DNA from: a virus
Taxonomy: Duplodnaviria > Heunggongvirae > Uroviricota > Caudoviricetes
Length of the DNA: 64,000 bases
Virus record (IMG/VR): IMGVR_UViG_2609459792_000007
Strand: one strand, 5' to 3'
A program made the position numbers and the translations under genes. A model generated the notes under the pieces. It was not told where the DNA came from and ran no database searches. It saw only the letters and a program-made list of their open reading frames with translations. This document shows, piece after piece, positions 5,454 through 63,782 of this stretch. Position 1 is the stretch's first letter. Each line of letters opens with the position of its first letter.

Positions 5454-5546
5454 TGGTAGAAAAAAATATTTATATCGGTAAAAATAAGTAGGTACTTACT
5501 TAATGGTGGGCAAGGATAGCCCACCAAATCAAGGAGCATATTCAAC

Positions 5547-13710: not shown

Positions 13711-13857
13711 TTAACAGCCATTGATTCTCGCCTAAAAATTCTAAGGCAGCACCTACCATTTAACCTTTACACAGCAGCCGTAGGCATTTAGGCTATATCA
13801 CATATAAGAAAACAAGTTGTTTCAGACAATAATAATAGACGCAAAGGGAACTCTCCA

Positions 13858-14526
13858 ATGACCAAGATCTTTGTGGTTGGCGGCACAAAGGGCGGGCCTG
13901 GCAAATCCACCGTTGCCCAGCAAATTGCCGTTTGCCTGAAAGTCAAAAAGAAGAAGAAGGTTTATATCACTGATATAGATATTCAGCGCACGACAACAAG
14001 CTGGTGTGAAGACCGTCGACAGAACGAAGACCTTGAGCTGATTCCTTTTGCATACGTTCAGGATGACATCATTAAGCACCTAAAATCGCTTCAGGGTAGA
14101 GCTGAGTTTGTAGTGGTAGATGCTGGTGGCTTTGACTCCGAAATTCAGCGACAAGCGATGCTGATGGCCGACGTTATCATTATCCCGCTTCGTCCTAAGC
14201 GTCGTGATTTGAAATCTCTGCGTGACATCGATCCTATTATCGACAATGTTCGTAATGTAAACGATAAAGTGAAGGTCCGCGCGGTCATGAACCAGTGCCC
14301 GGCTTTGCCATCACAAGTGTCTCGCATTCTGGCGGCTAAAGAGATTGTCGAGACGTTTGGCATCGAGTCTGCGCCAGTCAATCTATATAACCGCAACGTC
14401 TACGATGATGCGGAAGAGTCAGGTCGTTCTATCTTTGAAATGACCGGTAGCGAGCGCGACAAAAAGGCGGAAGCCGAGTTTGAAGAATTTGTAGATTATC
14501 TGTTGAGTCTGGAGGAAGAAGAATAA
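13858..14526 (+). CDS. parA: ParA-family partition ATPase (small, type Ib-like)
   Basis: 222 aa; deviant Walker A VVGGTKGGPGKST at the N-terminus, no N-terminal HTH extension; followed by a small basic protein gene. Confidence 0.8.
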   Translation: MTKIFVVGGTKGGPGKSTVAQQIAVCLKVKKKKKVYITDIDIQRTTTSWCEDRRQNEDLELIPFAYVQDDIIKHLKSLQGRAEFVVVDAGGFDSEIQRQAMLMADVIIIPLRPKRRDLKSLRDIDPIIDNVRNVNDKVKVRAVMNQCPALPSQVSRILAAKEIVETFGIESAPVNLYNRNVYDDAEESGRSIFEMTGSERDKKAEAEFEEFVDYLLSLEEEE

Positions 14527-14885
14527 TGTCCATGAAAATGGGTGACCTAGCAAAGCGCAAAGAGCCTGATGCACCGGCTAAGAACACAACTCCTTTGCGC
14601 CAACCAGTCAGACCACAAGGACGCCCGACTCGTGGCAAAGAGAAAATTAAAAGCCGCACTATGTCACTGGAAGACGAATACTTCGAGCTTCTGGAAATGA
14701 TGAAGTTTATCCCTCGTTTCGAGAAGTTCACCCGCTCTGATGTGATTCGTGCTGCTATTTTCCATCTGGCAGAGAAGTCACCGCAGGAAATCGAGGACAT
14801 CGTGAAACTTAACGAGGCGATCACCGCTGCCGATGTCACGATGCGTACCGATGAAATCAAACGAGAGTTGATGAAGAAAGGTTAA
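14526..14885 (+). CDS. small ParB/ParG-like centromere-binding protein (putative)
   Basis: 119 aa; basic N-terminal tail and a ribbon-helix-helix-like segment; start overlaps parA stop (ATGA-type coupling). Confidence 0.5.
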   Translation: MSMKMGDLAKRKEPDAPAKNTTPLRQPVRPQGRPTRGKEKIKSRTMSLEDEYFELLEMMKFIPRFEKFTRSDVIRAAIFHLAEKSPQEIEDIVKLNEAITAADVTMRTDEIKRELMKKG

Positions 14886-14890
14886 AAATC

Positions 14891-14921
14891 ATGCATTGGC
14901 GCGTACATTGCGCCAATGCAT
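14891..14921 (-). terminator. terminator hairpin for the minus-strand GIY-YIG gene
   Basis: 12-bp stem (ATGCATTGGCGC / GCGCCAATGCAT) with 7-nt loop; the A-run upstream on + gives a U-tract for the minus-strand transcript. Confidence 0.5.
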
Positions 14922-14937
14922 AACTACAGTGTCAGCT

Positions 14938-15705
14938 TTATGCCGCGCTAACACTATGTTCAGTCCTAACCACCCCAACCTTCACAAAAGGGCTACCGTA
15001 GCTTGGTGGCTTCTTGATTAATTTGCCTACATACAGTTTTCTAATATGCTCATCGGCTATTCTGCCAACAAATTCATATCGTTTTGTGTCGGGGCCAAGA
15101 GCTATATCCCTTGTAAAGTACTGCTGAGAACCGGCTTTGACCCAGCATTCAATCTGATAAACTTCCATTATTAGCCCACCATATGTAGCGTAGGCATATT
15201 TGAGATTCTCGTCTCTTGGAACCTTTGCCCATACGCCACGCGTAGCTTCATATAATGCCAGAGCGGACATTCCTGATTTGTAGGTGCTGTTTAGCAGGAA
15301 GGCAAGACCGGCGTGCTCAGGAGCAATTTCAGTTTCCTCTTGCAGCACTAAGTGATGGTAGGCGTCCAGTGATATTCTGCCCATCATGGAACCACTTCCT
15401 CGAACCTTATTCGTAAGCTCTCCGACCCCCATAAGGTCGATGCATGTCGCCTCAACAAGTTTGGCTGTGGTTTCATCCATACCATGACGAAGAATATCTA
15501 TGCCTAATTTTTTATTAGCCAAAAGTTCTTTGATCCGCATGGATTTGGGAGAGTCATCGGGATACTTGATGTGATCGAGACAACGAGTCGATTTGCCTTT
15601 TCCTATGTAAAACGGTCTTTTCATCTTGTCTTCTGTATCATAGAGACAGTAAACATAGTATTTAGCCTTATCCAAGGATCTCGCGTATACCGATAAATCG
15701 TCCAT
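14938..15705 (-). CDS. GIY-YIG domain endonuclease with uncharacterised C-terminal domain
   Basis: 255 aa; N-terminus YYVYCLYD..PFYIGKGKSTRCLDH fits the GIY-YIG motif; one of only three minus-strand genes in the window. Confidence 0.7.
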   Translation of the reverse strand: MDDLSVYARSLDKAKYYVYCLYDTEDKMKRPFYIGKGKSTRCLDHIKYPDDSPKSMRIKELLANKKLGIDILRHGMDETTAKLVEATCIDLMGVGELTNKVRGSGSMMGRISLDAYHHLVLQEETEIAPEHAGLAFLLNSTYKSGMSALALYEATRGVWAKVPRDENLKYAYATYGGLIMEVYQIECWVKAGSQQYFTRDIALGPDTKRYEFVGRIADEHIRKLYVGKLIKKPPSYGSPFVKVGVVRTEHSVSAA

Positions 15706-15816
15706 TATTGCATCTCTTAGCTACTGACTAATGCGTTCTATTTTACACATAAGTTTTTAATCAATTTAACAGGCTCAAAGTGTAGAGCTTCTGGGCGTCT
15801 AAGACGACAAGTTATG

Positions 15817-15871
15817 CCTGCTTCTGTATATATAAATAATAAGTAACTTATTAAATATATACGGAAGCAGG
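15817..15871. repeat. long AT-looped hairpin element, copy A
   Basis: CCTGCTTCTGTATATAT..ATATATACGGAAGCAGG, 17-bp arms with one G-T pair; near-identical copy at 62065-62123; followed by T-rich tract. Confidence 0.7.
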
Positions 15872-15978
15872 TCTTTTAAAAGACACCACCAGAACAACTC
15901 CCTTCCGTTTCCACTTCCAAAAACTGCCACCAGTCGCTATCATCCGCTCATTGTGATAAGTAAGTAACTACCTACCAG

Positions 15979-16728
15979 GTGAGCCACATGAGCCAAATCT
16001 TTTTCGATACCATCGACAACGACCAGTACGACTTCATGACAGAGTGGAATACCGCTGTTATGGACAAGTGGGTCGCTGAAAACATTGGTTTGTCGCGCTG
16101 TAAAGACGAGGCTGAACTCTTCGAGACGAAGTGGTTTGATTACCGCGACATGCATCCTCTCATGGCCACCTGTCTTTTTACGGAGGCATACAAACGTCAG
16201 TACTCAAATATCATGCTGACGCACGGTCGCGAACACTTTGAAACAGCTCCGTTCACCACCGGGTTAAAACGCCTGCCTTATCAGGAGTTGTCGACTGCCA
16301 ATAAAACGTCGCTATGGAAAGCACGCCAGTTTGCGGATCGCTATTGCTGCTCATACGACTATTTTATCTCCACCGTTCTTTCCGCAGCTGCACGACGGCT
16401 GTGGGACAAGCTGCCGCGCCCACAGCATTTATGGCAGCCAGAGCTGGTTGAGATATTCGAAGAGAAATTAGCCAGACGCGCAACAACCCGTCTGGATGAC
16501 TCTCTGGTTAGTTTTAAGCATATGGGAGACATGCAGTTCAACCCGATTCAGGAAAGCTATTTTGAGTGGATTCTGGAGCGTTTACGCGCCATCCCCCGCA
16601 GCAAGCGCATACGCGCAATTTTCTCCGCTATCTGGCTAATGGAAATCGTTCCAGAGCGCCTTATTTCCGCCCACTTTCCAGAAGAACTGGAAGAAGCACG
16701 GCGGTTTATTGATCCCCTATCTAATTAA
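15979..16728 (+). CDS. hypothetical protein (first gene of the replication block)
   Basis: 249-aa ORF; no motif recognised. Confidence 0.5.
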   Translation: MSHMSQIFFDTIDNDQYDFMTEWNTAVMDKWVAENIGLSRCKDEAELFETKWFDYRDMHPLMATCLFTEAYKRQYSNIMLTHGREHFETAPFTTGLKRLPYQELSTANKTSLWKARQFADRYCCSYDYFISTVLSAAARRLWDKLPRPQHLWQPELVEIFEEKLARRATTRLDDSLVSFKHMGDMQFNPIQESYFEWILERLRAIPRSKRIRAIFSAIWLMEIVPERLISAHFPEELEEARRFIDPLSN

Positions 16729-16771
16729 CTAATACTAGAAAACAATTTGTTTAAAAAACAAAGGAAAGCAC

Positions 16772-18112
16772 ATGACCGAACTTTGCCATACAGGACGCGG
16801 GCTGTCCGAAGAGTTTGATGAAGATTTCCAGAACAGACTGACGGCATATTTTTGTCGTGATCACGAGTTTCTTACTCGTGCGGGAGATCTGGTTGTGCCT
16901 AGCCAATTTGCCAATGCGGCCAATGCCATATTGGTTAATATGGTTTCGGGCTATTACCGTATGTACAAGAGCGCGCCCTCTTCATCTGCAATTCTGGATA
17001 TGCTTAAGCGTGCGAAACGCGATAAGACTATCCGTGAGGAACTATTCGCCGATGTTGTTGCTGCGTTTAAGCGCATCCTTGCAGAAAAATTGTCCGATAC
17101 CTCGTACATGGTTGACCAGGTATCAACCTTCGCAAAAAGCGTAGCGTTTGATGATGCTCTGATTAAGGCTGCTGAACTGAAAGAGAAAGGCGACTTTCAG
17201 GGGGCGATGGCAATCATGGCCAAGGTTCAGCAGATTGGATCGAACGAAGCGACCGGAATCTATGACTACTACACCTCCGCAAGTGAGCGATTGAAAGCGC
17301 GTGAATATGAGGCTTCAGAGGAGTATGTGCCAAACAGCATTACAACTGGACTCCCTCTGCTCGATAGGTTGCTGTACCAAAAAGGCTGGGCGAAGCGTGA
17401 AATGGTGCTCTTCATGGGGTTCGCTAAATCCGGTAAATCGACCGCAATGGGTGAGTTTTCCATAAACGCAACGCTTGCTGGCTACAATGTTCTGTATCTC
17501 TCGCTGGAGGTTCACACCAACATTTTGTCCGACCGTTTTGATGCAAGATTGTCGGAGACGGAAATGTCCAAGTTGGTGGAACGGCGCGATGAAGTTCATC
17601 GTAAGTTGGCAGAGTTGGGAGCCTCTAAGGGGATTGGTAGTTTGTGGGTTGTTGAGCGTCCGTCAGGAAGTATGTCACCGGCAGATCTGGACCGTATGCT
17701 TAACAGCATGAAAGCCAACGGCATGGTGCCTGACATGGTTGTTGTCGACTACGCAGATTTGATGCGTGCCAGTTATGACCTTCGTGATGATCGCGCCAAC
17801 ATTCGTAGTATCTACACCGATTTACGTGCTCTTTATGACAAGCATAACGTTGCTGGTATCACGGCGTCGCAAACAAACCGTGAAGGTGGCGCGTCAGAAG
17901 TTGCCACAATGATGCACGCTGCCGACAACATCGAAAAAGTACGTATTGCTGACCTGGTAATAACGATCAACAAAACCGAAGAAGAAGAAGCGAAAGGAGA
18001 GGCTCGTCTCTACTTTGCTGGTTCGCGTAACCAGCAGGGAGGGATCAGCATTCGCGTTAAACAAAACCTCGAACAAATGCGCTTCATTGAGCGGATCTTA
18101 GACGTTACCTAA
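16772..18112 (+). CDS. DnaB-like replicative helicase
   Basis: 446 aa; C-terminal RecA-fold with Walker A GFAKSGKST and Walker B-like VVVDYADLM; conserved start context AAAGGAAAGCACATG. Confidence 0.7.
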   Translation: MTELCHTGRGLSEEFDEDFQNRLTAYFCRDHEFLTRAGDLVVPSQFANAANAILVNMVSGYYRMYKSAPSSSAILDMLKRAKRDKTIREELFADVVAAFKRILAEKLSDTSYMVDQVSTFAKSVAFDDALIKAAELKEKGDFQGAMAIMAKVQQIGSNEATGIYDYYTSASERLKAREYEASEEYVPNSITTGLPLLDRLLYQKGWAKREMVLFMGFAKSGKSTAMGEFSINATLAGYNVLYLSLEVHTNILSDRFDARLSETEMSKLVERRDEVHRKLAELGASKGIGSLWVVERPSGSMSPADLDRMLNSMKANGMVPDMVVVDYADLMRASYDLRDDRANIRSIYTDLRALYDKHNVAGITASQTNREGGASEVATMMHAADNIEKVRIADLVITINKTEEEEAKGEARLYFAGSRNQQGGISIRVKQNLEQMRFIERILDVT

Positions 18113-19375: not shown

Positions 19376-19450
19376 CAAGTGCCGCTAAAATAAGTAGATG
19401 ATTACTTATCTTTCTGTAAGAATACTTTCATCTGTTAGCTAGGAGTTGGT

Positions 19451-22902: not shown

Positions 22903-23681
22903 AAATACAATGATAAGTATTTACTTACTTATCTTATATGTATAAGATGACTTTGTTTTCGTTGAGACGCGACTGTTTGAACTTAAATACAAGTGCAAAC
23001 GAAGAAGTCTATCTGGCAGTAGCCTAATAAGCCAAACACCAGCGAGGTCAGTTTCCAGCCTCGTTACCGAAATGGGACACACTGAGCGAGTGTGATTGCA
23101 GAACGCAGGAGGGAACATTCATGTTCCCTCCGATGAAGTAACAGAATGGGCGGTTGGTATATTTTCAACTCCATATGACTCCCGGATTCTTAGCCACTGA
23201 CCGCCCATTCTGTTACGTCATTTTGTTCAATTATGTCGTTTATACTGGGTTAAAAAGCGGCGACGTAGCCCGGCTGGTATGGTCAGCCAGCACACAACGT
23301 TGAGGCCATTACATTTTTATCAATTCTAAGGTTCTATTCACAGAGATACCGGCGAGCGTTGATATGTAACATGTTGGGCAAACATTCAATCGGAGTAGTG
23401 GCCTCAACGTTGTGAAAATAGGATAGTTGTGTAGGTTTAACCACTGTTGCCATTGGTACCTGTTTTCACAACAAATGATTCCATACATCACATTGTATAA
23501 ATTACAAAGTAGGTGCTGTCCTCAGAAACATCATCTACTTAAATAATTTGCCTTCTACTATTGAGCGAAGTCGAAAGCGTCTGGCACTAACGAAAAGTGC
23601 AAGTAGCGGTGCGTTTCCTGGCAGAAACTAACACCGCCGCGATTGGCACTGTTGAGTAATAAATACTGGCAGTGCTGAATT

Positions 23682-23756
23682 GATGGTGTAGCTCAGCGGT
23701 AGAGCAGTTGGCTGTTAACCAACTGGTCGGTGGTTCGAATCCACCCACCATCGCCA
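23682..23756 (+). tRNA. tRNA-Asn (GTT)
   Basis: Cloverleaf read by hand: acceptor GATGGTG/CACCATC, D-arm GCTC-AGCGGTA-GAGC, anticodon loop CTGTTAA, T-arm GGTGG-TTCGAAT-CCACC, CCA encoded. Confidence 0.85.
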
Positions 23757-23761
23757 ATTTA

Positions 23762-23848
23762 GGGGAGTTAGTCCGTAGAGGTAGCGGGGTAGACTGTAAA
23801 TCTACTGTCATGGAGACTCGGGTGGTTCGACTCCATCACTCCCCACCA
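23762..23848 (+). tRNA. tRNA-Tyr (GTA), long variable arm
   Basis: Acceptor GGGGAGT/ACTCCCC, anticodon stem-loop GTAGA-CTGTAAA-TCTAC, long variable arm, TTCGA T-loop, CCA encoded; D-arm pairing atypical. Confidence 0.7.
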
Positions 23849-23852
23849 AATT

Positions 23853-23928
23853 GCCGGTTTAGCTCAGTTGGTAGAGCGCCTGCCTTGTAAGCAGGATGTC
23901 AGCGGTTCGAGTCCGTTAACCGGCACCA
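23853..23928 (+). tRNA. tRNA-Thr (TGT)
   Basis: Acceptor GCCGGTT/AACCGGC, D-arm GCTC-AGTTGGTA-GAGC, anticodon loop CTTGTAA, T-loop TTCGAGT, CCA encoded. Confidence 0.85.
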
Positions 23929-24229: not shown

Positions 24230-24396
24230 CTCTCCGCCAGACACAGCGTTGAGCGGTTTGGCCTTTTAATCAACTCGATTAAGACTCCGCTAACATAAAC
24301 CAGACCGCTCAACGCTGTGATAGACAATTACGGCAGACGTTCTTAACCATAGCTTGCTAACATCCTAGCAACACTTTTTTTCAGCGCAAAATTCAA

Positions 24397-39669: not shown

Positions 39670-39720
39670 CTCGTTATTATCACATACAAGAAAACAATTT
39701 GTTAAAAGGTAAAGTTAATT

Positions 39721-44133: not shown

Positions 44134-44616
44134 AACCACTGCGGTGAGTAGTCTACTCACCGCATTCGTATCCAGCTCATTATCCACTGTAGTCAGTAAC
44201 AAAACCTTCCTACATATCTGCTAACCACTGTAGCGAGTAGACAGCCTTTCATTCGCATCAAACAACCACTATGGTGAGTATTGGAGTGAGATGTCCAGCG
44301 GGTATCCACTATGGTGAGTAAGCCTTTGCTGTTTTCAGTGGATATCCACTCGCCACAGTGGATACGCTCAAAGATGAGGGCGACAACAACCACTATAGAC
44401 AGTAAATTTTCCAAGATACCCAGTGACCACTAACCTCGCAGCCCTTGTTTCATCAGTGTTAGTGATCACTAACATTTAATTCAGTATTTGCATTCTACTG
44501 CCTACAGTGGTTATCAACAGATAACGATACTCACTATAGTGGATAGCGAATTACAGATATAAGTAAGGCTCACTACAGTGGATAGTGAGTCTTACTACTA
44601 ACTACAGTGGTTGGGC
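44134..44616. repeat. iteron array downstream of repA (incA-like)
   Basis: About 10 copies of a 9-bp core CCACTRTAG in both orientations, e.g. AACCACTGCGGTGAGTA, ATCCACTGTAGTCAGTA, CACTATAGTGGATAG, AACTACAGTGGTTGG. Confidence 0.8.
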
Positions 44617-45671
44617 TATTTGCGAGTCTTTGCCTTGCGCAACTCTTCGAGAAGCGCCAGTTCTTCTTTACTCAACATGACCATTTTGCCTTCTTTTTCG
44701 TCAGGCACAACGTCGATAATGTCATCTTGATTCTCATCTGGGAGGCTATATTCCGTCTCATCATTATCGATTTTTGTTGATATTTGTGCCTGGCGTAACT
44801 TTGGCCGCCTATAGTGGATGACGAAGTAGACCGAGTTTCCGCGCTTAACTTCCGTGTAATCGAGATATCCTATCTCTCGCAGCTGTTCCATAGCCTTTCT
44901 TACCGTCGCATTCTGAGTAATAGTGCGACTTGTCAGATTAAGTCTGGCGCGTAAACGGGCTAGTGATATTGGTGCCGGATCAGGCGGCAAACTTTCAATA
45001 AAAGTATAAAGCGCCTGAGCGGATTCTTTTCTTGAGAGTTCGTTTATAGCCCGGAGTTGCAGAAGAACCTTTTTGTCGAACTGGTAGAGTTCGAAAATCT
45101 TGGGATCTGCTTTCAGTTCGACCGTATCGTGCTTGACACTATATTTTGCCGTTTGCACAAGATGCGTTACGTAAAACTCATCAGAGCCTTTGCTACGGAA
45201 CGAGATGGTATTTGTGGCAATACGGCTTAGCGAACTGTCCAGGCGTTTGCGTAACTTCGCTGATGACCTGGCGGTCGGAATGCCACACAGCCTTACAAAC
45301 TCAACGAACGGCAACGTGACAGTATCGCCAACGACCTTGTGTTTGGCAAACGCGTGGATTATTCCCACCCACGTTTTAAAGTCGTTATCCATATCAAGCC
45401 GAAGGCCAGAGATCCTTATGTCTTCGTACCCTTCGGCTTTTGCCAGAGACAGCTGTTTGAGTTCAGCAGAGGCATCCATAGAGACCATTTGCCCCTTTCT
45501 TCCTCTGGATGTCGATTTCAGCGTCGGAACGAAGAGGCCCAGACGCATCAAAGCAACAGGCTGAACAGTGTTATTAGTGTTAGGAACCAACGTAACAACT
45601 TCGCCTGTCTTTTTATCTGTTTCTGAAAATGCTTCAACGATCGCTATGTTTTTATTGCCGTTTTCGCTCAT
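44616..45671 (-). CDS. repA: plasmid replication initiator RepA (P1 RepA-like)
   Basis: 351 aa; [49 protein letters not shown] and [12 protein letters not shown] parallel P1 RepA as recalled; flanked on both sides by iterons. Confidence 0.85.
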
Positions 45672-45715
45672 TCCAAATGTCTCTTGTTATTCGACGGCTT
45701 TGGTGGCCTTTGCTG

Positions 45716-46330
45716 ATTACAGTGGATAGTAGCACTCATCACAGCGGTTATCCTACCGTCTATAGTGGTTTTTCTCCTCTCTATAGTGGTTGCTTTGCTC
45801 CCTATAGTGGATTGTTCGCTCTCTATAGTGGATATCGATCATGTCTGAAGGCAGATGGCACAACGGTTTGAGGTGGGCGGGGATCTTATTGGGTCTTTAT
45901 GGGTCTCTTTGGTTCTCTTTGTGATCTGAATTACTGGATCGGGCCTGTGGATAAAAATCAGAGAATTTCAAGAACAGGTAACTCTACTCTTCTGTGGATA
46001 TTTAAGGACATAAGAATCATGACTAAGAGTAGAGTTTAAAATATATCTATGTATATCAGTATGTTAATGAAGAATTAAGTCATTAAGTTATCCATAAAAG
46101 ACAATGTGCTCTACTCTCTACAGTGGATATATACAGCTCTCCAGAGTGGTTGTTTTACTCTTCATAGCGGTTATTCAGCTCTCTACAGAGGTTTCTTTGC
46201 TCTCCATAGTGGATGGCAACACCCTTTCAGACCAGTAACCGCAACGGCTAGAGGCGATCGGGGATCTCTTTGGATCTTCTATTTGATCTTACTTGGGATC
46301 TCTTATTTGGATCTATCCAGTGGATAACTG
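45716..46330. other. iteron-type replication origin upstream of repA (iterons, DnaA boxes, GATC cluster, AT-rich tract)
   Basis: About 11 iterons (CTCTATAGTGGTT-type) at roughly 20-bp spacing in two groups (45716-45836, 46119-46215); DnaA box TGTGGATAA at 45946-45954 and near-consensus at 45994-46002 and 46319-46327; six GATC within 46257-46313; AT-rich 46020-46100. Confidence 0.8.
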
Positions 46331-47059: not shown

Positions 47060-47313
47060 CCCTCCAGATCGTATATTGGCGTAGATAGAATCTACGCCCC
47101 CTCAAAATAGCTCTCATAGCGTTCTACAGTGATCCTGTCTTATTTTTAGTCATACAGACAAGCAAAGTTGCGCCACGATAAATAGGTATATACTTACTTA
47201 TAAATTTTGTATATTAAGGCGCTCGTTTCATTCCTAACATACCGTTATGCATAGTTGTTTACCTCCTCATTGCTCTTAGAATTTGTATCAAAATAACCAC
47301 AAAGGAAAAACAC

Positions 47314-54246: not shown

Positions 54247-54352
54247 CATATGGTGGGGGATATCCCCACCTTCTCTTTGATTTGTAAGCCTTGTTTAAAC
54301 ATATAAGATAACAACTTGTTTAAACGCACCAAAAAAGAAAAAGGAAAAACAC

Positions 54353-60297: not shown

Positions 60298-60303
60298 AGC
60301 AAA

Positions 60304-60341
60304 AGCCTACTTTAAAGAGAGTTTAAAGTAGGCTTTCTTTT
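60304..60341 (+). terminator. rho-independent terminator
   Basis: AGCCTACTTTAAA-loop-TTTAAAGTAGGCT followed by TTCTTTT. Confidence 0.7.
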
Positions 60342-60457
60342 AAAGAACAGTCGCCTTTCAATCATTTCCTGCCTGTATTTAATACTTTTCCGCCTGATAG
60401 GTTTAGTCAAAATGTAGCCATCGAAACGCAAATGTAACCAAACAGAAGGAGACTTAC

Positions 60458-61389: not shown

Positions 61390-61449
61390 GATTGCCAGAC
61401 ATAAAATCAAATGCAAAAATAGGTATTTACTTACCTATCGAGAAAGAAG

Positions 61450-62043
61450 ATGATTGCAGCCGAAAAAATCAAACAGCGAAAGCGCGACAACTCTCTTCGT
61501 GACCTCTGGAGAACACCTGATTGGCTGTTTTCTGCCATTCAACGTTATCTTGGAGTGACATTTGATGTTGACGTTGCCTGCAACAAGGACAATGCAAAGC
61601 TGCCTAATTTCATAGGCGTTGAGCGTGATGCTTTGAAATCTGAATGGGGACAGCCAGGTACAATTGCCTTCCTCAATCCACCCTACTCCAAAATCTCCCC
61701 CTGGATTGATGCGGCTATACGTGAGCAGGCTCGCGGAGTTACAACAGTGATGCTAATTCCTCAATCCCTAGATACAAAGTGGTATGAGCGTGCAACAGAG
61801 TGTGCGAATGAGACGATTATTCTGTCTGGTGGCCGCGTAGCGTTTGTCGAGCCTGACGTCAATCTGGGTCAGGTAGAAGTAAACATCAACCCAGGTGGCA
61901 GTATGCTCGTTGTTTTTCGAGGATTCTGTCAGGACGCTGGGCACTCTATAAGCAAGATCCCTTTGGACGTCATGAAAAGTCTGGGAGGGTATGATCCTGC
62001 GAATGTGATCAGGAAAAAAAGACCATCAAAGAAGGCTGCTTAG
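61450..62043 (+). CDS. dam: DNA N6-adenine methyltransferase (phage Dam-type)
   Basis: 197 aa; catalytic motif FLNPPYS; size and motif fit the small phage N6-adenine methyltransferase family; target specificity not determinable. Confidence 0.7.
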   Translation: MIAAEKIKQRKRDNSLRDLWRTPDWLFSAIQRYLGVTFDVDVACNKDNAKLPNFIGVERDALKSEWGQPGTIAFLNPPYSKISPWIDAAIREQARGVTTVMLIPQSLDTKWYERATECANETIILSGGRVAFVEPDVNLGQVEVNINPGGSMLVVFRGFCQDAGHSISKIPLDVMKSLGGYDPANVIRKKRPSKKAA

Positions 62044-62064
62044 TTTGTTCTGGCGTCTGTAATT

Positions 62065-62123
62065 AGCCTGCTTCTGTATATATAAATAACTACATATTAA
62101 TTATTAATATACGGAAGCAGGCT
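62065..62123. repeat. long AT-looped hairpin element, copy B
   Basis: AGCCTGCTTCTGTATATAT..ATATACGGAAGCAGGCT; shares flanking TTCTGGCGTCT with copy A at 15817-15871; followed by GTTTTGT. Confidence 0.7.
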
Positions 62124-62204
62124 GTTTTGTATCAGAGACTCCAGACCTGAACATCACTACAGAATCCACTAGAACCCCTTCCCAGACGCTTTAAAATCGA
62201 TTTT

Positions 62205-63634: not shown

Positions 63635-63782
63635 TAAGTAAGTCTTTACCTATCATTTTAAATCATGTATCTTATCGGCGTCAGGATGACAATGTGTCGG
63701 TAAGACACAGTTCCAGGATGGAACGAGAAAGGCGGCTGGCAATCGCCAGCCGCAACTCTTTCTGACACTGGATGGAGTCCAC

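What the first reader, a model, noticed from the sequence alone, without database searches (positions are those of the whole stretch)
15789..15882. Long conserved hairpin element present in two copies (15817-15871 and 62065-62123)
Two near-identical elements of about 60 nt with 17-bp GC-containing arms (CCTGCTTCTGTATATAT / ATATATACGGAAGCAGG) around an AT-rich internally palindromic loop, sharing an upstream TTCTGGCGTCT flank and followed by T-rich tracts. They are far more elaborate than the ordinary terminators elsewhere in the window. They may be strong bidirectional terminators, processing sites, or a small repeated element related to the intergenic AAGTA/TACTT motif.
Basis: seen in the sequence. 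Interest (0 to 1): 0.5.

Follow-up and report, generated by a model that had tools for sequence, protein, structure and literature searches.

The report
Repeated long-hairpin transcription terminators, phage-plasmid
The two near-identical hairpins are most likely strong one-way transcription stop signals of an SSU5-type phage-plasmid; they are two of three copies of one old palindrome kept at the same genome positions in hundreds of enterobacterial plasmids, which is tidy but not surprising biology.

Summary
Hairpins lie at 15817-15871 and 62067-62121 on the + strand, with 17-nt arms CCTGCTTCTGTATATAT / ATATATACGGAAGCAGG. They are the two most stable hairpin-plus-TTTT structures in the window.

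The window is an SSU5/pHCM2-like E. coli phage-plasmid. Complete relatives carry exactly three copies at fixed positions:
- S1 lies before the replication module.
- S2 lies after the Dam methylase gene.
- S3 lies before terS, outside the window.

The element occurs in about 800 plasmids.

A run of at least four T follows the stem on the + strand in 15/15 distinct S1 and 17/18 distinct S2 sequences. It never follows on the - strand, and never at S3. Published RNA-seq of the relative Cyrano shows a 9-fold to about 230-fold drop across S1. Distant relatives keep the S1 hairpin through compensatory changes, or replace it with an unrelated terminator.

Best reading: unidirectional intrinsic terminators that insulate modules. 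Copies within a lineage share derived states, which points to gene conversion.

They are not bidirectional, and they are not instances of the TAAGTA-N6-TACTTA motif. A sequence-specific factor or RNase III processing is not excluded.

The parts
15817..15871 (+). S1 hairpin. Arms are 15817-15833 and 15855-15871, and the AT-rich loop folds into a further 7-bp helix.
   Evidence: The hairpin alone folds at -27.7 to -29.7 kcal/mol. The covariance model scores it 89.7 bits.
15872..15877 (+). T tract of S1 (TCTTTT), directly 3' of the stem.
   Evidence: A run of at least 4 T is kept in 15 of 15 distinct S1 sequences, across two unrelated downstream flanks.
15789..15800 (+). Upstream flank TTCTGGGCGTCT. 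It is shared with S2 and forms the outer TCTGG half of a degenerate outer inverted repeat.
   Evidence: The partner CCAGAAC lies at 15889-15895. Flank pairing is not significant for this copy (z = 0.0).
62067..62121 (+). S2 hairpin. Arms are 62067-62083 and 62105-62121. The stem can extend to 62064-62124.
   Evidence: It folds at -21.2 to -27.2 kcal/mol. The covariance model scores it 81.3 bits.
62122..62129 (+). T tract of S2 (CTGTTTTG).
   Evidence: A run of at least 4 T is kept in 17 of 18 distinct S2 sequences, across four different flank types.
62048..62058 (+). Upstream flank TTCTGGCGTCT of S2. It starts 5 nt after the Dam stop codon.
   Evidence: The partner CCAGACC lies at 62141-62147.
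13858..14885 (+). parA (13858-14526) plus a 119-aa partner gene (14526-14885). This is the operon whose transcription S1 closes in relatives.
   Evidence: ORFs. Pfam assigns MipZ/ParA to the first protein. In Cyrano these genes are expressed in the lysogen and the signal stops at S1.
14938..15705 (-). 255-aa GIY-YIG (LEM-3-like) ORF in the variable cargo slot just upstream of S1.
   Evidence: Homology to Cyrano and SSU5 begins at about 15807-15817, so S1 is the right edge of a variable region.
15988..16728 (+). First gene of the replication module, encoding a 246-aa protein with no Pfam match. The DnaB-like helicase gene follows at 16772.
   Evidence: The gene order is conserved in all relatives examined.
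61450..62043 (+). Dam-type N6-adenine methyltransferase gene. Its stop codon lies 23 nt before the S2 stem.
   Evidence: Pfam PF05869, E = 2.5e-38.

Best explanation
S1 and S2 are Rho-independent (intrinsic) terminators that act on + strand transcripts only. Each is a GC-clamped, roughly 25-bp composite RNA hairpin followed at once by a U tract.

Proposed roles:
- S1 ends transcription coming from the constitutively expressed parA operon and the variable cargo slot. This keeps the lytic replication genes silent in the plasmid-prophage state.
- S2 ends the nucleotide-metabolism/Dam transcription unit.

The two hairpins look alike because they are two of three paralogous copies of one ancestral palindrome that SSU5-like phage-plasmids keep at fixed module boundaries. 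The copies are homogenised within a lineage by gene conversion.

Shown: anatomy, copy number, positional conservation, strand-specific T-tract conservation, compensatory changes in the stem, and a gene-level RNA drop across S1 in one relative.

Inferred: that RNA polymerase actually terminates at these nucleotides, that S2 terminates at all, and that gene conversion rather than a trans-acting factor keeps the copies alike.
For: (1) Anatomy. Each hairpin has a 17-18-bp stem with a CCTGC/GCAGG clamp, a structured loop, and then TCTTTT or CTGTTTTG. They are the two most stable hairpin-plus-TTTT structures in 64 kb.

(2) Strand specificity. A run of at least 4 T follows the stem on the + strand in 15/15 distinct S1 and 17/18 distinct S2 sequences, although the downstream flanks differ. 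It follows on the - strand in 0/33. At S3, which lies inside a silent late region, it is absent in 15/15.

(3) Position. In SSU5, Cyrano and PhiR41_1 each copy starts about 15-27 nt after the stop codon of a + strand gene. There are exactly three copies per genome.

(4) Experiment in a relative. In RNA-seq of LF82/Cyrano, normalised counts are parA 49.8, CYRAN_29 89.1 and CYRAN_30 54.6. Then comes S1, and CYRAN_31 reads 6.2. In log2 units the values are 10.42 against 2.56 in one condition (PMC9928086 supplementary file 2).

(5) Deep conservation of function at the S1 position.
- Relatives at 44-64% protein identity keep a hairpin followed by a T-rich tail, with a run of at least 4 T in three of the four and only TACTTTG in L154. 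The stem shows compensatory changes at pairs 8, 10 and 11 (L154, L162).
- The L160 lineage has both arm types changed at positions 4-6. Its left arm is seen in one copy and its right arm in another, because the contig starts inside the first copy's loop, so this is not an observed pair.
- Morganella-type relatives have an unrelated GGGAGCA...TGCTCCC + TTTCTTT terminator at this position instead.

(6) Mismatches in the stem lean towards G.U on the + strand: 23 against 7 A.C among distinct cores.

(7) Gene conversion.
- The E. coli lineage shares the flank TTCTGG(G)CGTCT between S1 and S2. The Salmonella lineage does not.
- K. oxytoca pCAV1099-111 shares a lineage-specific 50-nt tract between its S1 and S2 equivalents.
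Against: - No 3'-end mapping exists. The RNA-seq evidence is gene-level, comes from a relative, and covers S1 only. S2 and S3 lie between genes that are all silent in the lysogen.
- In this window the gene next to S1 on the upstream side is on the - strand. S1 could therefore only stop read-through that has already passed a convergent-gene hairpin at 14888-14924.
- The same hairpin is kept at S3 without any T tract. The arm sequence is almost invariant among close relatives. Termination alone does not require either feature.
- In K. oxytoca the S1 and S2 equivalents have lost the hairpin, but a shared S-derived tract persists next to new terminators. This hints at some sequence-level role or at very recent conversion.
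- The covariation statistic is modest (0.162 against 0.112; 7 of 500 shuffles reach it) and was computed on an arms-only pseudo-alignment.
Confidence: 0.65

Rival explanations
1. The palindrome is a sequence-specific cis site for a phage-encoded or host protein, acting on DNA as duplex or cruciform. Candidate roles include a module-boundary regulator or roadblock site, a dispersed partition or silencing site as in N15, an auxiliary lytic origin, or a packaging-related site. Under this reading the T tracts at S1 and S2 are a secondary addition.
For: - There are three copies at fixed positions in every complete genome.
- The arms are nearly invariant among close relatives while the flanks diverge.
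- S3 keeps the hairpin without a T tract. There it is the core of a palindrome of about 100-150 bp, 130 nt upstream of terS.
- An outer inverted repeat, TCTGG...CCAGA, flanks all copies.
- An S-derived tract persists in K. oxytoca after the hairpin is lost.
Against: - No candidate binding protein was identified.
- Arm sequences do change in distant lineages, and they change in a way that preserves pairing. A structure would be expected to do this; a fixed recognition sequence would not.
- Homogenised tracts run beyond the arms into loops and flanks, which fits gene conversion.
- GC skew shows no origin-like switch at any S site.
- The SSU5 TerL belongs to the Terminase_6N/Terminase_3 families, which from general knowledge are typical of headful packagers. 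Assembly contigs also break inside S1 loops. The SSU5 record ending inside the S3 loop is therefore probably an assembly artefact and not a cos end.
Confidence: 0.13
2. The hairpins are RNase III processing or retroregulation sites, like lambda sib/tI or the T7 intergenic R sites. The long duplex would be cut. This would separate or destabilise the flanking mRNAs, especially when read-through transcripts add the outer TCTGG/CCAGA pairing.
For: - The composite helix of about 25 bp exceeds the length RNase III needs (established knowledge of RNase III substrates; structure).
- S3 and the Salmonella-type S2 extend into imperfect duplexes of about 37-65 bp, with flank-pairing z-scores of -3 to -7.
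- S3 has no T tract, so it is presumably transcribed through.
Against: - For the two window copies, flank pairing is no better than with shuffled flanks (z = 0.0 and -1.35).
- No cleavage data exist.
- Pairing at S3 is partly lost in a distant relative (L156).
- This role is compatible with termination and does not replace it.
Confidence: 0.1
3. The element is a selfish or neutral repeated palindrome, similar to a MITE or REP element, with no function of its own. It has simply been inherited at three sites.
For: - It is a repeated intergenic palindrome with terminal inverted motifs.
- Palindrome-driven rearrangements occur at the sites in K. oxytoca.
Against: - Copy number is fixed at three, and the positions are orthologous across Escherichia, Salmonella, Klebsiella, Kluyvera and Yersinia.
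- No extra or polymorphic insertions and no target-site duplications were seen.
- The T tract is maintained strand-specifically, and the stem shows compensatory changes.
Confidence: 0.04

Closest known systems
Rho-independent (intrinsic) terminators, such as lambda tR', T7 T-phi and trp t
   Same: A GC-clamped hairpin is followed immediately by a U tract. The element lies shortly after a stop codon, acts on one strand only, and marks the end of a transcription unit.
   Different: - The stem is unusually long, at 17-18 bp plus a structured 21-25-nt loop.
- The same sequence is used at several sites in one genome.
- It is conserved at those sites across hundreds of replicons.
- One paralogue (S3) lacks the U tract.
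Lambda sib/tI retroregulator and T7 RNase III (R) sites
   Same: These are intergenic phage hairpins. A terminator-like inner stem can be lengthened by flanking complementary sequence, and the sites within one genome share sequence.
   Different: No cleavage evidence exists here. The outer pairing is significant only at S3 and at the Salmonella-type S2, not at the two window copies.
Repeated intergenic palindromes that can terminate or stabilise transcripts (REP/BIME, ERIC, Neisseria Correia elements)
   Same: A sequence-conserved palindromic repeat lies in intergenic DNA, with inverted terminal motifs and possible terminator activity.
   Different: There are only three copies, at fixed orthologous positions. 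There is no sign of mobility and no RAYT or transposase partner. The element is confined to one phage-plasmid family.
Dispersed cis sites of plasmid-prophages and phages (N15 dispersed sopC-like centromeres, P1 C1 operators, mycobacteriophage L5 stoperators)
   Same: A few to many copies of one site are scattered at operon boundaries of a temperate phage genome.
   Different: Those are short duplex protein-binding sites with known binders. This is a 55-nt hairpin-forming palindrome with no known binder, and its behaviour tracks structure and the U tract.

Membership tests
Intrinsic (Rho-independent) terminator | A stable GC-containing RNA hairpin | tested here: met
   The hairpins fold at -27.7/-29.7 and -21.2/-27.2 kcal/mol. 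Fold z-scores are -5.4 to -6.7. They rank first and second in the window.
Intrinsic (Rho-independent) terminator | A U-rich tract within about 0-3 nt of the stem, on the transcribed strand only | tested here: met
   The tails are TCTTTT and CTGTTTTG. The tract is kept in 32 of 33 distinct S1/S2 sequences on the + strand and in 0 of 33 on the - strand.
Intrinsic (Rho-independent) terminator | Lies downstream of, and co-oriented with, a transcription unit | tested here: met
   S2 starts 23 nt after the Dam stop codon. S1 starts about 15-22 nt after a + strand gene in SSU5 and Cyrano. In this window the neighbouring gene upstream of S1 is on the - strand.
Intrinsic (Rho-independent) terminator | Transcripts end at the U tract | tested here: inconclusive
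   Only gene-level RNA-seq in the relative Cyrano is available. It shows a 9-fold to about 230-fold drop across S1. S2 is uninformative because both sides are silent. No 3'-end mapping exists.
Bidirectional terminator | An A tract upstream and a T tract downstream, so that both strands carry hairpin plus U tract | tested here: not met
   The - strand tails are CATAACTTG and CTAATTACA. None of the 33 distinct S1/S2 sequences has a run of at least 4 T on the - strand.
RNase III processing site (T7 R sites, lambda sib) | A dsRNA helix of about 20 bp or more | tested here: met
   A 17-18-bp stem is coaxial with a 5-7-bp upper helix. At S3 the helix extends to about 37 bp or more.
RNase III processing site (T7 R sites, lambda sib) | Cleavage dependent on rnc | not testable with these tools
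   This needs 5'/3'-end mapping in rnc+ and rnc- hosts.
Any curated Rfam RNA family | A score at or above the family's gathering threshold | tested here: not met
   The whole window yields only 3 tRNAs. A permissive search finds only sub-threshold eukaryotic miRNA-precursor-like hits of 18-26 bits against gathering scores of 62-89.
MITE / REP-like mobile palindromic repeat | Variable copy number and insertion sites, target-site duplication, and a partner transposase or RAYT | tested here: not met
   Each of the two complete genomes searched with the model (PhiR41_1, SSU5) has exactly 3 copies, at orthologous positions; the same site classes recur across the other genera sampled. No target-site duplication was seen in the flanks.
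TAAGTA-N6-TACTTA intergenic motif of this genome | A match to TARGTA-N6-TACYTA with at most 1 mismatch | tested here: not met
   There are 13 matches in the window and none lies within 15817-15871 or 62067-62121.
cos / physical genome end | Virion DNA ends map to the site, and the terminase is of a cos type | tested here: inconclusive
   The SSU5 and Cyrano records are cut inside the S3 loop. However, an unrelated assembly contig is cut inside an S1 loop, and TerL matches Terminase_6N/Terminase_3. This concerns S3 only, which lies outside the window.

The most novel reading that the evidence does not exclude
The three-copy palindrome is more than a terminator. It would be a lineage-co-evolving recognition element, as RNA hairpin or DNA cruciform, for a factor encoded by the phage-plasmid. 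That factor would switch the three genome modules between the plasmid state and lytic growth, for example by hairpin-specific antitermination or processing at S1 and S2 and a separate role at the 100-150-bp S3 palindrome next to terS. This would explain why the same arms persist at a site with no U tract, and why copies in one genome change together.
Probability: 0.15. Interest if true: 0.65.

Novelty: new member of a known kind. Interest (0 to 1): 0.3.

Why it matters
SSU5/pHCM2/pMT1-type phage-plasmids are common in clinical Enterobacterales. How they keep lytic modules silent while expressing plasmid-maintenance and cargo genes is largely unstudied.

A conserved strong terminator at the right edge of the cargo slot (S1) explains how very different inserted genes can be expressed without reading into the replication genes. 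It also gives annotators a precise landmark for module boundaries.

The palindromes break short-read assemblies. This affects how such elements are reconstructed and where deposited records are opened.

If the copies prove to be recognised by a dedicated factor, they would be a handle on the plasmid-to-lytic switch.

Tried and rejected
- Rfam. Gathering and permissive searches found no family.
- Literature. A search for the arm sequences, and for pHCM2/pMT1/SSU5 combined with terminator, stem-loop or palindrome, found nothing that describes the element. One 2026 preprint on a phage-plasmid could not be opened.
- CCAGAMC enrichment. The motif occurs 32 times against 11 expected. The copies are mostly inside genes, so I did not treat it as a site array.
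- TCTGGGAG. It is not enriched.
- Origin hypothesis. GC and AT skew stay positive all round the genome, with no switch at S1-S3.
- cos-end hypothesis for S3. It is weakened by the contig break inside an S1 loop and by the TerL family.
- Extended sib-like outer stem. It is significant at S3 but not at the two window copies.
- Covariation within close relatives. There is none, because the arms are invariant. Distant relatives had to be fetched through the neighbouring 246-aa protein.
- S2 as a mosaic junction. Rejected, because relatives are collinear across it. S1 is a junction.
- LexA box. The arms hold CTGT(AT)n and (AT)nACAG halves, but they are separated by the loop. No CTGT-N8-ACAG site exists (read directly from the sequence).
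- Further copies. A covariance-model search of the window, with the speed filters off, found no degenerate extra copy.
- Raoultella-type genome. I could not obtain its S2 and S3 sites. The plasmid is absent from PLSDB.

Full report
**What is there.**
The window carries two hairpin-forming elements on the + strand.
- S1 spans 15817-15871. Its arms are CCTGCTTCTGTATATAT and ATATATACGGAAGCAGG, with one T.G wobble at arm position 9. Its 21-nt AT-rich loop is itself palindromic.
- S2 spans 62067-62121 and has the same arms with a different loop.

Evidence that this is more than chance:
- Searching one arm with up to three mismatches finds only these four arms, against 0.18 expected.
- Both elements fold far better than shuffled sequence, with z-scores of -5.4 to -6.7.
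- They are the two most stable hairpin-plus-TTTT structures on either strand of the 64-kb window.
- A covariance model built from 33 family members scores them 89.7 and 81.3 bits. The next hit scores 20.6 bits. It is an unrelated, ordinary long-stem terminator at 60300-60345.

So are the T tracts, TCTTTT and CTGTTTTG.

**Where the window comes from.**
It is an SSU5/pHCM2-like phage-plasmid of E. coli.
- It is 98-99% identical to 'Escherichia phage CMS-2020a' and PhiR41_1.
- It is about 82% identical to Salmonella phage SSU5 over the replication genes.

The hairpin occurs in 800 PLSDB plasmids from Klebsiella, Escherichia, Enterobacter, Yersinia pestis (pMT), Salmonella, Citrobacter and Cronobacter. 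It also occurs in SSU5-like phage records. Scans of public collections found it in viral contigs and in Kluyvera, Buttiauxella and Yersinia genomes. Outside this family there were only chance matches.

**Copy number and position.**
Complete genomes hold exactly three copies.
- S1 lies between the parA operon plus a variable cargo slot and the replication module. That module starts with a 246-aa protein gene, followed by the DnaB-like helicase and the primase.
- S2 lies directly after the Dam-type methyltransferase gene.
- S3 lies about 130 nt upstream of terS, outside this window.

Nearly all genes are on the + strand. In SSU5 and Cyrano each copy begins about 15-27 nt after the stop codon of a + strand gene.

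In this window the slot before S1 holds a GIY-YIG nuclease-like ORF on the - strand. Homology to Cyrano and SSU5 begins exactly at S1. At least nine unrelated upstream flanks occur among relatives. S1 is therefore the fixed right edge of a cargo slot. S2 is not a mosaic junction.

**Evidence for termination.**
- T tract. A run of at least four T follows the stem on the + strand in 15/15 distinct S1 and 17/18 distinct S2 sequences, even though several unrelated downstream flanks are involved. It follows on the - strand in 0/33, and at S3 on either strand in 0/15. The elements are therefore unidirectional, not bidirectional.
- Expression data. Published RNA-seq of E. coli LF82 carrying Cyrano gives, in normalised counts, parA 49.8, CYRAN_29 89.1 and CYRAN_30 54.6. 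After S1, CYRAN_31 reads 6.2. In one condition the log2 values are 10.42 and 2.56 (PMC9928086, supplementary file 2).
- S2 and S3 lie between genes that are all at background in the lysogen, so those data say nothing about them.
- S3 sits inside a silent, presumably late, region. That fits its lack of a T tract.

**Deep comparison.**
I fetched diverged relatives through the 246-aa protein downstream of S1. The S1 position looks as follows.

| Relative | Protein identity | What is at the S1 position |
|---|---|---|
| L159 | 64% | Canonical arms, new loop, tail TCGCTTTT |
| L155 | 59% | Altered right arm, tail TATTTTAT |
| L154 (Raoultella-type) | 59% | CCTGCTCCCCAT / ATGGGAAGCAGG; pairs 10 and 11 changed on both sides; weak tail TACTTTG |
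| L162 | 44% | CCTGCTTTCTA / TAGAAAGCAGG; pairs 8, 10 and 11 changed on both sides; tail ATTTTTAT |
| L160 | 54% | Arms CCTAGCTCTGTATAT / ATATACAGAGCTAGG; positions 4-6 differ from canonical in both arm types, but the two arms are seen in different copies |
| Morganella-type (L153, L161) | 49% | No S hairpin; an unrelated GGGAGCA...TGCTCCC + TTTCTTT terminator instead |

On an arms-only pseudo-alignment, 92% of cells pair. Three pairs show double changes. The covariation score is 0.162 against 0.112 in shuffles, and 7 of 500 shuffles reach it. This is modest but in the right direction.

Among close relatives the arms never vary, which says nothing either way. Stem mismatches favour G.U on the + strand, 23 against 7.

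The conserved feature at this position is a hairpin followed in most relatives by a T tract. That is what a terminator needs.

**Why the copies look alike.**
Copies in one lineage share derived states that extend beyond the arms.
- The E. coli lineage shares the upstream flank TTCTGG(G)CGTCT between S1 and S2. The Salmonella lineage does not.
- S1 and S3 share loop variants within lineages.
- In K. oxytoca pCAV1099-111 the S1 and S2 equivalents share a lineage-specific tract of about 50 nt. This holds even though the hairpin has been lost there and separate terminators sit beside it.
- The L160 lineage has its own arm sequence in two neighbouring copies.

This pattern is what gene conversion between paralogous copies would give. 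The genome encodes its own recombinase and exonuclease (annotation).

A co-evolving trans-acting factor would give a similar pattern and cannot be excluded. Two observations are the main reasons for keeping that reading alive, at about 0.15:
- An intact hairpin persists at S3 without a T tract. There it is the core of a 100-150-bp palindrome, with a flank-pairing z-score of about -4.
- An S-derived tract survives in K. oxytoca.

**Things that turned out not to matter.**
- Rfam has no matching family.
- GC skew gives no origin signal at the sites.
- The SSU5 and Cyrano records are cut inside the S3 loop. An independent assembly contig starts inside an S1 loop, and the TerL belongs to the Terminase_6N/Terminase_3 families. 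I read the record ends as assembly breaks at a palindrome and not as physical ends.
- The outer TCTGG...CCAGA pairing is not significant for the two window copies.
- The intergenic AAGTA/TACTT motif is a separate element, TARGTA-N6-TACYTA, with 13 copies against 0.2 expected. The copies checked (15957, 61420) lie just before a ribosome-binding site. None overlaps the hairpins.

**Verdict.**
The most likely function is strong, one-way intrinsic termination at module boundaries of a phage-plasmid. S1 and S2 are two members of a three-copy, family-wide palindrome that evolves in concert. This is a new and well-defined member of a known kind of element. I found no description of it in the searchable literature. 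Interest is modest unless a dedicated recognition factor is found.

Noticed in passing
window 5485-5502, 15957-15974, 19391-19408, 22914-22931, 47183-47200, 61420-61437, 63635-63652 and 6 more: An 18-bp inverted-repeat motif, TARGTA-N6-TACYTA, occurs 13 times against 0.2 expected. All copies are reported on the + strand. The copies checked (15957-15974 before the ATG at 15988, 61420-61437 before the ATG at 61450) lie about 12-13 nt upstream of a start codon. It could be a dispersed operator, a promoter element or a 5'-UTR hairpin.
   Followed up: partly
window 13794-13825, 16724-16755, 39676-39707, 54293-54324; also PhiR41_1 45670-45720: A second repeated palindrome, GAAAACAA-N1-2-TTGTTT, lies upstream of parA and the helicase gene, with two further copies (39676, 54293) whose gene context was not checked. 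Two copies lie upstream of terS in relatives.
   Followed up: no
outside the window: PhiR41_1 (PV340561.1) 45500-45700; SSU5 record ends: The third copy (S3) is the core of an imperfect palindrome of about 100-150 bp. It includes the last codons of the upstream gene, has no T tract, and lies 130 nt before terS. The SSU5 and Cyrano GenBank records are linearised inside its loop.
   Followed up: partly
PhiR41_1 45719-45750 (outside the window): A small canonical terminator, GAGCGC-ATGGAC-GCGCTC + TGTGTGTTTT, sits immediately before the terS start codon. The layout recalls the lambda pR'-tR' arrangement, which is controlled by antitermination.
   Followed up: no
window 14888-14924: A perfect 12-15-bp GC-rich hairpin (ATGCATTGGCGC...GCGCCAATGCAT) lies between the convergent parA-operon partner gene and the GIY-YIG ORF. 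It has AAAA(T) on its 5' side on the + strand (a T run after the stem on the - strand) and no T run on its 3' side.
   Followed up: no
window 14938-15705 (-): A 255-aa ORF with a LEM-3-like GIY-YIG nuclease domain occupies the variable slot before S1. Other relatives carry DUF2971 or unrelated genes there.
   Followed up: partly
window 44219-46219: Arrays of 21-22-bp direct repeats containing CTATAGTGG lie in two clusters. They look like iterons and, by position in relatives, flank the plasmid replication initiator gene (annotation).
   Followed up: no
window 23133-23221, 23293-23414, 24242-24319 and tRNAs at 23682-23925: Three tRNA genes are flanked by several 20-22-nt, 95%-complementary inverted repeats.
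   Followed up: no
L164 16260-16450 and L165 28530-28573 (K. oxytoca pCAV1099-111): In a diverged relative, the S1 site has been rebuilt into a palindrome of about 200 nt. Its S-like arms lie in inside-out order around a new terminator. The S2 site keeps only the loop plus the right arm. The two sites share a lineage-specific 50-nt tract.
   Followed up: partly
PQ492289.1 (Klebsiella phage vB_KpnS_p4727) record start: This linear phage record starts exactly at the start codon of the small ORF after S2 and ends 110 nt after the S2 hairpin. This is another deposited genome opened next to one of these palindromes.
   Followed up: no
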